A DNA stretch of 51,026 nt. Source: a virus. Taxonomy: Duplodnaviria > Heunggongvirae > Uroviricota > Caudoviricetes. How positions within the stretch are numbered: position 1 is the first letter of the stretch; each line of letters opens with the position of its first letter. Below are positions 19,572-22,500 of this stretch, one piece after another. The stretch covers positions 1-51,026 of IMG/VR virus record IMGVR_UViG_2671180890_000005. The stretch is one strand, 5' to 3'. Position numbers: made by a program.

Positions 19572-22500
19572 TAAGACATTCCCGCTCTTACACATCCCAG
19601 CCCTGAAAAAGGGCATCAAATTAAACCACACCTATGGTGTATGCATTTATTTGCATACATTCAATCAATTGTTATCTAAGGAAATACTTACATATGGTTC
19701 GTGCAAACAAACGCAACGAGGCTCTACGAATCGAGAGTGCGTTGCTTAACAAAATCGCAATGCTTGGAACTGAGAAGACAGCGGAAGCTGTGGGAGTTGA
19801 TAAGTCGCAGATCAGCAGGTGGAAGAGGGACTGGATTCCAAAGTTCTCAATGCTGCTTGCTGTTCTTGAATGGGGTGTCGTTGACGACGACATGGCTCGA
19901 TTGGCACGACAAGTTGCTTCGATTCTCACCAATAAAAAACGCCCGGCGGCAACCGAGCGTTCTGATCAAATACAAATGGAATTTTAACAACATCCAACGA
20001 GGTAATTATATGCGAAACAAAGGCTTTAATCCACCTGATACACACAAAGAAGTTAAGCGTTTGCGCTTCCTTCGTTCCATTGATGAAAGAACTCAAATCT
20101 CTTTTGTGAAAGTTGCCAGAACTGAGCTTCTGAAGGCTGAGGCGAGGGCGTTGCTCCCGTCCCTACCAAAAGAGGAGGGATATACGTTCATTCCAAACGC
20201 ATTTCTGGAAAAGCTGCTCAAAGAAGACATATCCGTAAGTCAATTTAACGATGTTCTTAAGGTCTTTCGTCAAGGCAGGTAGTTATGAGCAATACAGCAA
20301 AAATCTACGATTTCAGCGCCGCACACGAGCGCAGGAGCAACAGGATGGAGAACCAGAAAACTGGTTACATTCCGTTGTACCGGAGCATTCTGAAACAGTC
20401 ATGGGCGAAAGATGTTTATCTTCGCACCCTGTGGGAAAACCTTCTCCTGAATGCCGCCAGAAAGCCATACAAAGCGAATTTCAAAGGTCATGAATGGCAT
20501 CTGCAACCCGGTCAACTGGTTGTGACAGCAGCTGATTTAGGTCTTCAGTTATGCGACAGACATGGCAAGCCAGCAAGCCGTGATCAGGTTGAGCGGATGC
20601 TTCAGGTTTTTGTGAAAGAGGGGATGATCTCCATTGATGGAGAGAAGCAAAAAGGTCGTGTGATAACCATCACAAATTACCATGAATATGCTCAAAAAAT
20701 GGACAATTCACCCGCACATGAAGCCGCACAAACAACCGCACATGATGCCGCACATGATGAAGCCAGTAATGGCGCGGCATTCAGCGTGCATGCCGCACAT
20801 GAAAGCGCACATGAAGCCGCACAAACAACCGCACATCATGAACAAGAAGGTATTAACAAGAATATAAATAATACCCCCCTACCCCCCAATGGGGGAGGCG
20901 ATGGGCTGGTTAAACCTGAACGTCGCAAGGCAGAACGAATCGACTACGAATCCTTCCTGAACGCCTACAACACCGAAGTCGGTGACAGACTGCCACACGC
21001 TGTTGCGGTCAACGAGAAACGCAAACGCCGCCTGAAGAAAATCATCCCGCAACTGAAAACGCCAAACGTGGACGGTTTCAGAGCGTATGTCAGGGCGTTT
21101 GTGCATCAGGCCAAGCCGTTTTACTTCGGAGACAACGACACGGGCTGGACGGCAGATTTTGATTACCTGCTGAGGGAAGATTCGTTAACGGGAGTACGGG
21201 AAGGGAAGTTTGCAGACAGGGGGATTGCATGAGACAGGATATCGAAGCGAGCGTTATCGGTGGCCTGCTGATTGGTGGATTAACTCCAACCGCCAGTGAC
21301 GTTCTGGCAACGCTGGAGCCGGAAGCGTTTTCAATTCCGCTCTACCGGAAAGCCTTCGAAGTTATCCGGAAGCAGGCGAGAAACAGAAACCTAATCGACG
21401 CGCTGATGGTTGCCGAGGCGTGCGGAGAGGAGAATTTCACGTCAATCCTGATGACCAGCAAAAACTGTCCGAGTGCCGCAAACCTGAAGGGATATGCCGG
21501 AATGGTAGCGGATAACTATCACCGCCGTCTGGTGCTGGAAATCATGGATGAAATGCGTGAACCAATTCAGAGCGGAACCATCGATACATCGAGTCAGGCG
21601 ATGGACGAGCTCGTAAAGCGTCTTTCAGCCATCAGAAAGCCCCGTGACGAGGTTAAACCTGTACGGTTAGGGGAAATCATTACTGACTACACTGACACGC
21701 TTGACAGGCGTCTGAGGAACGGAGAAGAGTCAGATACCCTGAAGACCGGAATCGAAGAACTTGATGCCATCACCGGAGGGATGAACGCGGAAGACCTGGT
21801 GATAATCGCTGCTCGTCCTGGTATGGGGAAAACCGAACTGGCGCTGAAGATTGCCGAAGGCGTTGCAAGTCGCGTTATTCCTGGTTCTGACGTCCGGCGC
21901 GGGGTATTGATTTTCTCAATGGAAATGAGCGCATTGCAGATTGCAGAGCGAAGCATTGCCAACGCCGGGAGGATGTCGGTTAGCGTACTGCGAAATCCTG
22001 CATCGATGGATGACGAAGGCTGGGCGCGTGTTGCTAACGGCATGAGTCAGCTTGCAGATTTGGATGTATGGGTAGTCGATGCCTCGCGGTTATCGGTCGA
22101 AGAAATACGCTCAATCGCAGAACGGCACAAACAGGAAAATCCAAACCTGTCACTCATCATGGCGGATTATCTTGGCCTGATTGAGAAGCCGAAAGCAGAT
22201 CGCAACGACCTCGCAATTGCTCACATCTCCGGAAGCCTGAAGGCGATGGCGAAAGACCTGAAAACGCCTGTTATCTCCCTAAGTCAGCTTTCACGCGATG
22301 TTGAGAAGCGACCAAACAAACGCCCGACAAACGCAGATTTGCGTGATTCAGGAAGCATTGAACAGGACGCAGACTCAATCATCATGCTCTATCGGGAAGC
22401 GGTATATGACGAGAACAGTAGCGCCGCGCCATTTGCTGAAATCATCGTAACGAAAAACCGTTTTGGCTCACTTGGTACGGTTTACCAGCGGTTCTGCAAC

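What the first reader, a model, noticed from the sequence alone, without database searches (positions are those of the whole stretch)
20711..20898. Replication origin embedded in the O-like gene
Repeated CCGCACATGA-type iterons force a repetitive AHEAAQTTAH peptide in the initiator, followed by an A+T-rich stretch and a C6/G5 hairpin. This is the lambda-style ori-within-O arrangement with a different iteron sequence. The six-frame track also reports a spurious His/Pro/Met-rich ORF here from the same repeats.
Basis: partly seen in the sequence, partly recalled or inferred. Interest (0 to 1): 0.4.

Follow-up and report, generated by a model that had tools for sequence, protein, structure and literature searches.

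The report
Phage replication origin inside initiator gene
The repeats lie inside the replication-initiator gene of a P22-like prophage and are almost certainly that phage's replication origin, a known lambda-style arrangement, but the binding sites are laid out differently from those of lambda, P22 and HK97.

Summary
Window 20711-20839 holds eight same-strand 12-bp units (core SCGCACAT) in two clusters of four separated by 33 bp. Next comes the least stable 30-mer of the replication genes (20844-20873), then a C6/C6/G5 inverted repeat. All of it lies in the linker-coding part of an O-like initiator gene (20285-21232), upstream of a DnaB-type helicase gene 90% identical to P22 gp12.

The origin reading is strongly supported by comparison, not by experiment. 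In 58 related prophage initiator genes the layout recurs: 3+3 or 4+4 units, a 33-bp spacer, invariant GAACAA, and an A+T-rich stretch. The units are constrained as DNA: wobble bases stay fixed while the encoded residues vary. Two sequence classes (CGCACAT, CG[C/A]GCAT) differ at a synonymous base. That base co-varies perfectly (51/51 loci) with Asp/His at the start of the predicted recognition helix. The repeats travel with the N-terminal domain; the C-terminal domain travels with the downstream helicase or loader.

The layout differs from lambda, P22 and HK97, which share four palindromic ~19-bp iterons spaced 20/24/23 bp. The hairpin is weak and belongs to the HK97/P22-type C-terminal module. 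The overlapping His/Pro/Met ORF is spurious. No origin activity has been measured.

The parts
20285..21232 (+). O-like replication initiator gene (315 aa). It is a mosaic: an N-terminal DNA-binding domain, a linker that carries the origin, and an HK97/P22-type C-terminal domain.
   Evidence: Pfam Phage_rep_O matches aa 20-132 with E = 3.4e-15. The gene is 98-99% identical to the O genes of CUS-3, Gally, JEP4 and many Stx2a phages. Residues 190-315 are 97% identical to HK97 O and 60% to P22 gp18. Residues 3-143 are 80% identical to the O protein of Klebsiella phage ST16-OXA48phi5.2.
20345..20710 (+). Coding region of the N-terminal winged-helix domain (aa 21-142), the predicted iteron reader. 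D100 (position 80 of the domain) and A82 (position 62) are the candidate specificity residues.
   Evidence: The AlphaFold2 model has pLDDT 79 and pTM 0.71, with helix 62-68, helix 79-91 and a beta-hairpin wing at 95-109. Foldseek returns only weak matches, all to winged-helix proteins such as RosR, CodY, ArsR and MarR. Positions 80 and 62 are the only alignment columns that separate the two iteron classes perfectly.
20711..20758 (+). Iteron cluster I: four direct 12-bp units, CCCGCACATGAA GCCGCACAAACA ACCGCACATGAT GCCGCACATGAT.
   Evidence: The family logo is n[C/G]CGCACA[T/a]nnn, from 140 units in 22 parsed class A loci.
20759..20791 (+). 33-bp spacer between the clusters, GAAGCCAGTAATGGCGCGGCATTCAGCGTGCAT. 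Its length is fixed and CCAGTAATGGCGCGGCT is partly conserved across the family. Its function is unknown.
   Evidence: The spacer is 33 bp in every parsed locus, and its 5' half is conserved even in loci with unrelated iterons.
20792..20839 (+). Iteron cluster II: four direct 12-bp units, GCCGCACATGAA AGCGCACATGAA GCCGCACAAACA ACCGCACATCAT.
   Evidence: The two clusters hold equal numbers of units in 48 of 48 parsed class A/B relatives: 3+3 in 25 and 4+4 in 23.
20840..20873 (+). Predicted DNA-unwinding element: the conserved GAACAAGAA followed by an A+T-rich stretch, GAACAAGAAGGTATTAACAAGAATATAAATAATA.
   Evidence: It contains the least stable 30-mer of the O and helicase genes, rank 1 of 2291. 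The same position holds the least stable 30-mer in 54 of 58 relatives, and the other four are 13-14 nt away. The codons GAA CAA are invariant in 58 of 58.
20870..20874 (.). Recombination joint between the N-domain/iteron/A+T-rich module and the HK97/P22-type C-terminal module.
   Evidence: In the DNA alignment the window follows L132 and L003 up to ...AAATAATA and follows HK97 from ATACCCCC onward.
20874..20898 (+). C6-TA-C6-AAT-G5 inverted repeat, with predicted stem 20878-20886 / 20891-20898. It is part of the HK97/P22-type module and its role is uncertain.
   Evidence: Folding energy is -6.6 kcal/mol with z = -1.4. The element is conserved in HK97 and P22, where the annotated P22 rep_origin ends at the G5 run. 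L151 carries a variant, CCCCTCAAGAGGGG. L132 lacks it.
20899..21232 (+). Coding region of the C-terminal domain of the initiator, the predicted helicase-recruiting domain.
   Evidence: C-domain type matches the type of the downstream gene in all 59 loci with a classifiable downstream gene. The lambda-type C-domain pairs with a lambda-P-type loader in 49 of 49, and three other C-domain types pair with a DnaB-type helicase.
21229..22605 (+). Phage-encoded DnaB-type replicative helicase, the partner of the initiator.
   Evidence: Pfam DnaB_C (E = 9e-78) and DnaB N-terminal domain. The protein is 90% identical to P22 gp12.
20682..20867 (+). Spurious 61-aa His/Pro/Met-rich ORF in the +1 frame, a by-product of the repeats. 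The 45-aa ORF at 20708-20845 on the - strand has not been checked; I assume it is the same kind of by-product.
   Evidence: One search lists the ORFs. The +1 frame carries stop codons in most relatives.

Best explanation
Window 20711-20895 is most likely the origin of theta replication of a P22-like (HK620/CUS-3-type) prophage. It lies in the part of the initiator gene that encodes the linker between the protein's two domains.

Proposed mechanism:
1. Early rightward transcription from the immunity region produces the O-like initiator and the DnaB-type helicase.
2. The initiator's N-terminal winged-helix domain binds the eight 12-bp direct repeats (core SCGCACAT), which form two clusters of four around a fixed 33-bp spacer. 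Binding is probably one domain per unit. This builds a nucleoprotein complex comparable to the lambda O-some.
3. Strain from that complex opens the adjacent A+T-rich element (20840-20873).
4. The initiator's C-terminal domain, of HK97/P22 type, brings in the phage's own helicase, so host DnaB and DnaC are not needed. This follows the textbook account of P22.
5. Host primase and DNA polymerase III then take over.

Shown here:
- the anatomy of the region;
- DNA-level constraint on the repeats;
- co-variation of repeat sequence with helix-turn-helix residues;
- modular inheritance of the repeats with the N-domain;
- the position of the least stable DNA.

Inferred:
- binding of the initiator to the repeats, and its stoichiometry;
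- unwinding of the A+T-rich element;
- helicase recruitment by the C-domain;
- origin activity itself.
For: (1) Context. The gene order is cI, cro, cII, O-like initiator (Pfam Phage_rep_O), DnaB-type helicase. The helicase is 90% identical to P22 gp12.

(2) Known parallels. Lambda carries its four annotated iterons inside O. The P22 record annotates rep_origin inside gene 18 at the equivalent position. Published statements agree: origins of lambdoid phages lie mid-O as iterons plus an A+T-rich tract (PMC7466680). Lambda, P22 and L each carry their own repeats inside O/18 (bioRxiv 10.1101/2020.10.05.325894).

(3) DNA-level selection on the repeats.
- In class A relatives the Ala codon of the unit is GCA in 138 of 139 cases, against 110 of 494 elsewhere in the same genes.
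- In class B it is GCG in 122 of 125 cases, against 121 of 677 elsewhere.
- The His codon is CAT in 263 of 266 units.
- The wobble base of the first codon is C in 333 of 334 units, although that residue varies among P, A, T, S and G.

(4) Protein-DNA co-variation. Class A units read CGCACAT (23 loci) and class B units read CG[C/A]GCAT (28 loci). Asp versus His at domain position 80 separates the classes perfectly, as does Ala/Pro versus Ser/Thr at position 62. No other column does. The class changes about four times on the domain tree (bootstrap range 2-6). In the model, positions 80 and 62 sit at the N-termini of helices 79-91 and 62-68 of the predicted winged helix-turn-helix.

(5) Modularity. 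The Klebsiella phage O shares the N-domain at 80% identity and has a lambda-type C-domain and a P-type loader, and it carries the same 4+4 CGCACA array. HK97 and P22 share only the C-domain and carry different iterons. C-domain type tracks the downstream partner, not the iteron class.

(6) Unwinding element. The least stable 30-mer of the O and helicase genes abuts the last repeat in the window. The same holds in 54 of 58 relatives, and the GAA CAA codons are invariant.

(7) No competing array. This is the only repeat array in the replication module.
Against: - No experiment on any member of this family was found. None of the inspected or listed GenBank records with this gene annotates an origin.
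- The units lack the dyad symmetry and the 20/24/23-bp spacing shared by the lambda, P22 and HK97 iterons. Binding mode and stoichiometry therefore cannot be carried over from lambda.
- Position 80 lies only about 130 nt from the repeats. Physical linkage in a mosaic genome could contribute to the perfect correlation.
- The structure model is of moderate confidence (pLDDT 79), and its matches to solved structures are weak, with best E = 6e-3.
- The hairpin is not statistically distinctive.
Confidence: 0.85

Rival explanations
1. The repeats are binding sites for the initiator, but their job is regulatory: autoregulation of O, copy-number control by pairing of sites, or a transcription roadblock. 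The true start of replication would lie elsewhere.
For: Co-variation and DNA-level constraint show that the sequence is read, probably by the N-domain. They do not show that replication starts here. The two equal clusters around a fixed spacer could in principle serve looping or pairing.
Against: The least stable DNA of the gene sits directly next to the last repeat in nearly every relative. No other repeat array or comparably unstable stretch exists in the replication module. The equivalent position is the annotated origin in lambda and P22.
Confidence: 0.07
2. The repeats are selected only at the protein level, as a His/Ala-rich flexible or metal-binding linker. The DNA periodicity would be a by-product.
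For: The region encodes a low-complexity interdomain linker, and the AH dipeptide recurs every four residues in classes A and B.
Against: - Wobble positions are nearly invariant while the encoded residues vary.
- The A and B classes differ by a synonymous change made in every unit of a locus.
- In class B the Ala codon is often replaced by Glu (GAG) while the G is retained.
- More distant relatives keep the layout with entirely different peptides, VTNE and PSDE.
Confidence: 0.03
3. The conserved stretch is mainly a recombination joint, or boundary sequence, kept because it allows exchange of replication modules among lambdoid phages. It would have no role of its own in initiation.
For: The N-module and C-module join at about 20870-20874, inside the A+T-rich stretch. 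N- and C-domains reassort freely across relatives. Many database proteins of this family are partial and end in the repeat region.
Against: This reading does not explain the array structure, the co-variation with helix-turn-helix residues, or the fixed 33-bp spacer. It is compatible with an origin rather than an alternative to it: a conserved functional element is a natural crossover point.
Confidence: 0.05

Closest known systems
Bacteriophage lambda ori / O protein (iterons ITN1-4 plus an A+T-rich region inside gene O)
   Same: - The origin lies inside the initiator gene, between the regions coding the DNA-binding N-domain and the partner-binding C-domain.
- The repeats are followed directly by an A+T-rich element.
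- The initiator belongs to Pfam Phage_rep_O.
- The first ten residues are alike: MSNTAKIYDF here, MTNTAKILNF in lambda.
   Different: - Lambda has four ~19-bp palindromic iterons at spacings of 20/24/23 bp. Here there are 2 x 4 non-palindromic direct 12-mers with a 33-bp spacer.
- The N-domains are barely alignable: 32% identity over 69 aa, E = 0.005.
- The partner here is a DnaB-type helicase, not a lambda-P-type loader.
Phage P22 ori / gene 18 with gene 12, and HK97 O with P
   Same: - The C-terminal domain of the initiator is shared: 60% identity to P22 gp18 and 97% to HK97 O.
- The helicase is 90% identical to P22 gp12.
- The ACCCCC-TA-CCCCC-AA-GGGGG element lies to the right of the A+T-rich region, and the P22 rep_origin annotation ends at it.
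   Different: P22 and HK97 have unrelated N-domains. Their iterons are palindromic (TTTACC..GGTAAA in P22, TTAGCC..GGCTAA in HK97) with lambda geometry. Their A+T-rich region contains a 14-bp tandem repeat that is absent here.
Predicted origin of Salmonella phage L (six imprecise 11-bp repeats inside gene 18; bioRxiv 10.1101/2020.10.05.325894)
   Same: Short repeats of 11-12 bp lie inside the initiator gene, and the initiator is paired with a DnaB-type helicase. That origin is also only predicted.
   Different: The repeat sequence differs (TGTCCAACGGA). No phage L record appeared among the listed rows of a tblastn search seeded with a divergent member of this N-domain family. I did not examine the phage L sequence itself.
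Iteron-type plasmid origins (RepA, RepE and pi families)
   Same: This comparison rests on general knowledge. Arrays of direct, non-palindromic repeats are read by winged-helix initiator domains and lie next to an A+T-rich unwinding element.
   Different: Plasmid iterons are typically about 17-22 bp and lie outside the rep gene. No sequence or strong structural similarity to those Rep proteins was found.

Membership tests
Lambdoid ori-within-initiator-gene origins (broad kind) | Repeat array located inside the initiator gene, in the segment between the DNA-binding domain and the partner-binding domain | tested here: met
   The array occupies codons 143-185 of 315, between the Pfam Phage_rep_O domain (aa 20-132) and the HK97/P22-type C-domain (aa 190-315).
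Lambdoid ori-within-initiator-gene origins (broad kind) | A+T-rich unwinding element directly downstream of the repeats | tested here: met
   20844-20873 is the least stable 30-mer of the O and helicase genes. The same position holds it in 54 of 58 relatives.
Lambdoid ori-within-initiator-gene origins (broad kind) | Repeat sequence is type-specific and inherited with the initiator's N-terminal domain | tested here: met
   The Klebsiella phage O has the same N-domain and the same array. HK97 and P22 share only the C-domain and carry different repeats. Residues at positions 62 and 80 co-vary with the iteron class.
Lambdoid ori-within-initiator-gene origins (broad kind) | Initiator C-domain matched to the adjacent helicase or helicase-loader gene | tested here: met
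   C-domain type and downstream gene type agree in all 59 classifiable loci.
Lambdoid ori-within-initiator-gene origins (broad kind) | Fragment supports initiator-dependent replication; initiator footprints the repeats | not testable with these tools
   No experimental data for this origin type were found in the searchable literature.
Lambda/P22/HK97 iteron geometry (narrow class) | Four iterons of about 18-20 bp, each with internal dyad symmetry | tested here: not met
   Here there are eight 12-bp units with no dyad symmetry, all in one orientation. Lambda, P22 and HK97 each have four palindromic 18-20-bp copies.
Lambda/P22/HK97 iteron geometry (narrow class) | Start-to-start spacing of 20, 24 and 23 bp in one uninterrupted array | tested here: not met
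   Spacing here is 12, 12, 12, 45, 12, 12, 12 bp, forming two clusters with a 33-bp spacer. The 20/24/23 spacing is found in all three reference phages.
Pfam PF04492 Phage_rep_O (initiator protein family) | Score above the curated gathering threshold | tested here: met
   56.8 bits against a cut-off of 28.7, E = 3.4e-15, over aa 20-132.
DnaA-dependent origins | Consensus DnaA boxes (TTWTNCACA) in or next to the origin | tested here: not met
   20000-21400 contains no perfect box, only scattered one-mismatch sites. No IHF consensus site was found.

The most novel reading that the evidence does not exclude
This family may read its origin in a way not described for lambdoid phages. In that reading, single winged-helix domains bind direct 12-bp sites arranged in two equal clusters (3+3 or 4+4) around a fixed 33-bp spacer. 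Specificity would then be switchable by one residue and one base pair: Asp100 with CGCACAT versus His with CGCGCAT. If Asp/His at the start of the recognition helix directly reads the A/G base, nature has produced closely related origin-initiator pairs that would not cross-react. Such pairs could be rebuilt in the laboratory with one codon change plus matching changes in the repeats.
Probability: 0.3. Interest if true: 0.6.

Novelty: new variant of a known kind. Interest (0 to 1): 0.38.

Why it matters
About 5% of complete E. coli genomes (280 of 5426) carry this origin region, as do P22-like phages such as CUS-3 and many Stx2a-converting phages. None of the inspected or listed records annotates an origin. 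Marking it would improve prophage annotation and remove two spurious ORFs. It also explains why assemblies and initiator proteins often break at this point.

For replication biology, the family offers a natural series of matched initiator-origin pairs, with a candidate one-residue/one-base specificity switch that is directly testable. It also shows that lambdoid initiators of one Pfam family use at least two different iteron geometries.

Tried and rejected
- **Viral contig scan.** The IMG/VR scan with the N-domain returned only 98-100% identical copies and was useless for co-variation. The genome-contig scan with an alignment was needed.
- **Solved structures.** A sequence search of the PDB with the whole initiator found nothing, even at E = 10.
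- **Fold search.** Foldseek on the N-domain model gave only weak winged-helix matches, best E = 6e-3. This is enough to name the fold class but not a specific relative.
- **Host-factor sites.** No perfect DnaA box and no IHF consensus site were found, and only one GATC lies nearby.
- **Hairpins.** The C-run/G-run hairpin (z = -1.4 and -2.05) and the spacer hairpin at 20774-20796 (z = -1.05) are not distinctive. I did not build on them.
- **Overlapping +1 ORF.** I considered it as a possible overlapping gene. I rejected it because the frame is broken by stops in most relatives.
- **Concerted evolution of the two clusters.** Within-locus identity at variable positions is 0.49, against 0.44 between loci. 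There is no clear signal.
- **Literature.** Searches for the motif and for HK620/CUS-3 origins found no description. The HK620 genome paper is not held, so an earlier mention there cannot be excluded.
- **Phage L.** I looked for it as a possible family member by tblastn, and it did not appear among the listed rows.
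Full report
**Setting.** The window carries a P22-like prophage. Around the finding the gene order is: a cI-type repressor (18623-19255, - strand), cro, a cII homologue (19634-19987), a 315-aa ORF (20285-21232) and a 458-aa ORF (21229-22605). Pfam assigns the 315-aa protein to Phage_rep_O (aa 20-132, E = 3.4e-15). It assigns the 458-aa protein to DnaB-type helicases (DnaB_C, E = 9e-78). The helicase is 90% identical to P22 gp12. The initiator gene is 98-99% identical to genes annotated as O or replication protein in CUS-3, Gally, JEP4, HF4s and dozens of Stx2a-converting phages. The two records I inspected, CUS-3 and Gally, annotate no origin. The origin region occurs in 280 of 5426 complete E. 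coli genomes.

**The observation.** Reading the sequence and running the repeat finders gives eight 12-bp units. All are on the + strand and in the same codon phase:
- Cluster I, 20711-20758: CCCGCACATGAA, GCCGCACAAACA, ACCGCACATGAT, GCCGCACATGAT.
- A 33-bp spacer, 20759-20791.
- Cluster II, 20792-20839: GCCGCACATGAA, AGCGCACATGAA, GCCGCACAAACA, ACCGCACATCAT.

The 7-mer SCGCACA is not enriched in the window as a whole (19 found, 15.6 expected). But eight copies lie within 124 bp, where about 0.04 are expected. No other multi-copy array exists in 19250-22700.

Downstream, 20841-20871 is 19% G+C. The 30-mer 20844-20873 is the least stable of all 2291 in the two replication genes, and is in the top 0.1% of the window. 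Then comes CCCCCC-TA-CCCCCC-AAT-GGGGG (20874-20895). As a hairpin this is weak: -6.6 kcal/mol, z = -1.4. The 61-aa His/Pro/Met ORF (20682-20867) is real as an open frame. It is closed by stops in most relatives, so it is a by-product of the repeats.

**Mosaic structure.** A tblastn search splits the initiator into two parts.
- Residues 190-315 are 97% identical to HK97 O and 60% to P22 gp18. Both of those phages have DnaB-type helicases.
- Residues 3-143 are 74-80% identical to the O proteins of Klebsiella phage ST16-OXA48phi5.2 and Yersinia phage vB_YenM_210.17. Their C-domains are of lambda type (51% identical to lambda O) and are followed by lambda-P-type loaders.

The Klebsiella gene carries the same 4+4 array of CGCACA units with the same spacer. 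HK97 and P22 have none. A DNA alignment places the joint at about 20870-20874. The window follows the N-domain relatives through the A+T-rich stretch, and follows HK97 from ATACCCCC onward. So the repeats and the A+T-rich stretch belong to the N-domain module. The C/G inverted repeat belongs to the HK97/P22-type C-domain module.

**A family of 58 loci.** A scan of one genome per bacterial species with an N-domain alignment gave 66 prophage loci across Enterobacterales, at 34-84% identity. Together with the window and the Klebsiella and Yersinia phage loci, 60 had an O gene long enough to use, and 58 of those carried the EQ landmark. Their common layout is as follows.
- The layout is n units of 12 bp, a 33-bp spacer, n units again, CAT GAA CAA, and then an A+T-rich stretch.
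- Among the 48 parsed loci of the two main classes, n is 3+3 in 25 and 4+4 in 23. It is never unequal.
- The least stable 30-mer of the whole initiator gene starts within 60 nt after the last unit in 54 of 58 loci. In the other four it starts 13-14 nt before the landmark.
- The codons GAA CAA are invariant in 58 of 58.

**The repeats are constrained as DNA.** The class A logo (140 units) is n[C/G]CGCACA[T/a]nnn. The class B logo (194 units) is n[C/G]CG[C/A]GCA[T]nnn. Codon statistics show the following.
- The Ala codon of the unit is GCA in 138 of 139 class A units, against 22% GCA elsewhere in the same genes.
- It is GCG in 122 of 125 class B units, against 18% elsewhere.
- The His codon is CAT in 263 of 266 units, against about half elsewhere.
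- The wobble base of the first codon is C in 333 of 334 units, although that codon encodes P, A, T, S or G.
- In class B, Ala (GCG) is often replaced by Glu (GAG), which keeps the G.

More distant relatives, with N-domains at about 40% identity, keep the layout but use other units and other peptides: GTAACAAA (VTN), CCGATGAA (PSDE) and AACCATCC. This pattern is the reverse of what protein-level selection produces. It rules out the reading that this is merely a low-complexity linker.

**Protein-DNA co-variation.** Classes A and B differ at unit base 6, A versus G, which is a synonymous site. Among all columns of the N-domain alignment, only two separate the 23 class A loci from the 28 class B loci perfectly. 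These are position 80 (Asp in A, His in B; D100 of the window ORF) and position 62 (Ala/Pro in A, Ser/Thr in B). Positions 97-98 are the next best. On a tree built without those two columns the iteron class changes about four times, with a bootstrap range of 2-6. The association is therefore not a single ancestral split.

An AlphaFold2 model of the domain (pLDDT 79, pTM 0.71) gives a winged helix-turn-helix. Its elements are helix 62-68, helix 79-91 in the recognition-helix position, and a beta-hairpin wing at 95-109. Foldseek matches are weak, but all are winged-helix proteins. The discriminating residues thus sit at the N-termini of the two HTH helices and in the wing, which are the usual DNA-contacting positions. 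An acidic side chain pairing with A:T and His pairing with G:C is chemically plausible for major-groove readout. That last point rests on general knowledge and is an inference. A caveat is that position 80 lies only about 130 nt from the array, so linkage may contribute to the correlation.

**Modularity of the C-domain.** Clustering C-domains and downstream genes shows that the lambda-type C-domain always precedes a lambda-P-type loader (49 of 49). Three other C-domain types, including the window's, precede DnaB-type helicases. Iteron class is independent of both. This matches the classical division of labour in lambda O: the N-domain reads the origin and the C-domain recruits the partner.

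**Comparison with known origins.** Lambda's four annotated iterons lie inside O. The P22 record annotates rep_origin inside gene 18, running from the first iteron to the G5 run. The literature describes the same principle for lambda, the Stx phages 933W and P27, P22 and L. The window therefore belongs to the known kind, an origin inside the initiator gene.

Its geometry is different, however. Lambda, P22 and HK97 all have four palindromic 18-20-bp iterons at start-to-start spacings of exactly 20, 24 and 23 bp, although their sequences are unrelated. The window has 2 x 4 direct, non-palindromic 12-mers and a 33-bp spacer. The window N-domain is barely alignable with lambda O, at 32% identity over 69 residues. 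I therefore file it as a new variant of a known kind. One reservation remains: the 2001 HK620 genome paper could not be read, and it may have mentioned the repeats.

**The hairpin.** The C-run/G-run element is conserved in HK97 and P22. L151 has a partly compensated variant, CCCCTCAAGAGGGG. L132 has a P22-type C-domain but lacks the element. All loci with lambda-type C-domains lack it as well. Its folding energy is not distinctive. Its role is open. It may be an accessory origin element of the HK97/P22 module, or it may simply encode the conserved peptide NTPLPPNGGG.

**Verdict.** No binding or replication experiment exists for this origin type. The regulatory-sites, protein-linker and recombination-joint readings are minor rivals, and the last of these is compatible with an origin. 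For a specialist the finding as stated is expected. The added value lies in three things:
- the distinct iteron geometry;
- the equal-cluster rule;
- the candidate Asp/His to A/G specificity switch, which can be tested directly.

Noticed in passing
window 20759-20791; the same position in L087-L152: The spacer between the two iteron clusters is 33 bp in every parsed relative. Its 5' half (CCAGTAATGGCGCGGCT, peptide SNGA) is conserved even in loci whose iterons and N-domains are very different. Third-codon positions vary somewhat, so the constraint may act on protein, on DNA, or on both. No function is known.
   Followed up: partly
L087-L140, L003, L004 (48 parsed class A/B loci): The two clusters always hold the same number of units: 3+3 in 25 loci and 4+4 in 23, never 3+4. 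Within-locus similarity between the clusters is not elevated, so this looks like an architectural rule and not a recent duplication.
   Followed up: partly
L153:735-821 (lambda), L006:2402-2488 (P22), L005:2402-2486 (HK97): Lambda, P22 and HK97 have unrelated iteron sequences but identical start-to-start spacings of 20, 24 and 23 bp, and each iteron is palindromic. P22 and HK97 also share a 14-bp tandem repeat (ACAAAAGACAATAT, two copies) in their A+T-rich region.
   Followed up: no
proteins P0001-P0072; P0022 and P0040: Nearly all database relatives returned for the N-domain are partial proteins of about 150-210 aa that end in or just after the repeat region. This suggests assemblies often break at this mosaic joint. 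Two entries, P0022 and P0040, shift into the +1 frame within the repeats (PRITPRI...), which gives truncated N-domain-only products. Whether these are sequencing errors, pseudogenes or real truncated forms is unknown.
   Followed up: no
GenBank OR850084.1 (hits H49 and H99): A 2692-bp record named 'Staphylococcus phage SA 1298 Kay' encodes a full-length enterobacterial-type O protein, 62% identical to the window's. It is probably mislabelled or a contaminant.
   Followed up: no
window 20319-20325: A ninth, isolated copy of CCGCACA lies in the 5' leader of the O gene (codons 12-14), about 390 bp upstream of the array. It is also present in CUS-3. It may be chance, since about 15 copies are expected in the window.
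   Followed up: no
window 20285-20314 compared with L153:387-416: The first ten residues of the initiator (MSNTAKIYDF) resemble those of lambda O (MTNTAKILNF), although the rest of the N-domains is barely alignable. This fits a conserved joint at the 5' end of O genes among lambdoid phages.
   Followed up: no
window about 8954-48601: The window appears to hold a whole P22-like prophage of about 40 kb, judged only from ORF sizes and order. A 407-aa ORF lies at 8954-10177 on the - strand, and large + strand ORFs follow at 30736-48601, including 732-aa, 423-aa and 981-aa ORFs. ARAGORN found no tRNA gene. The closest complete-genome match to the origin region is E. coli LF82 (98.9%).
   Followed up: no
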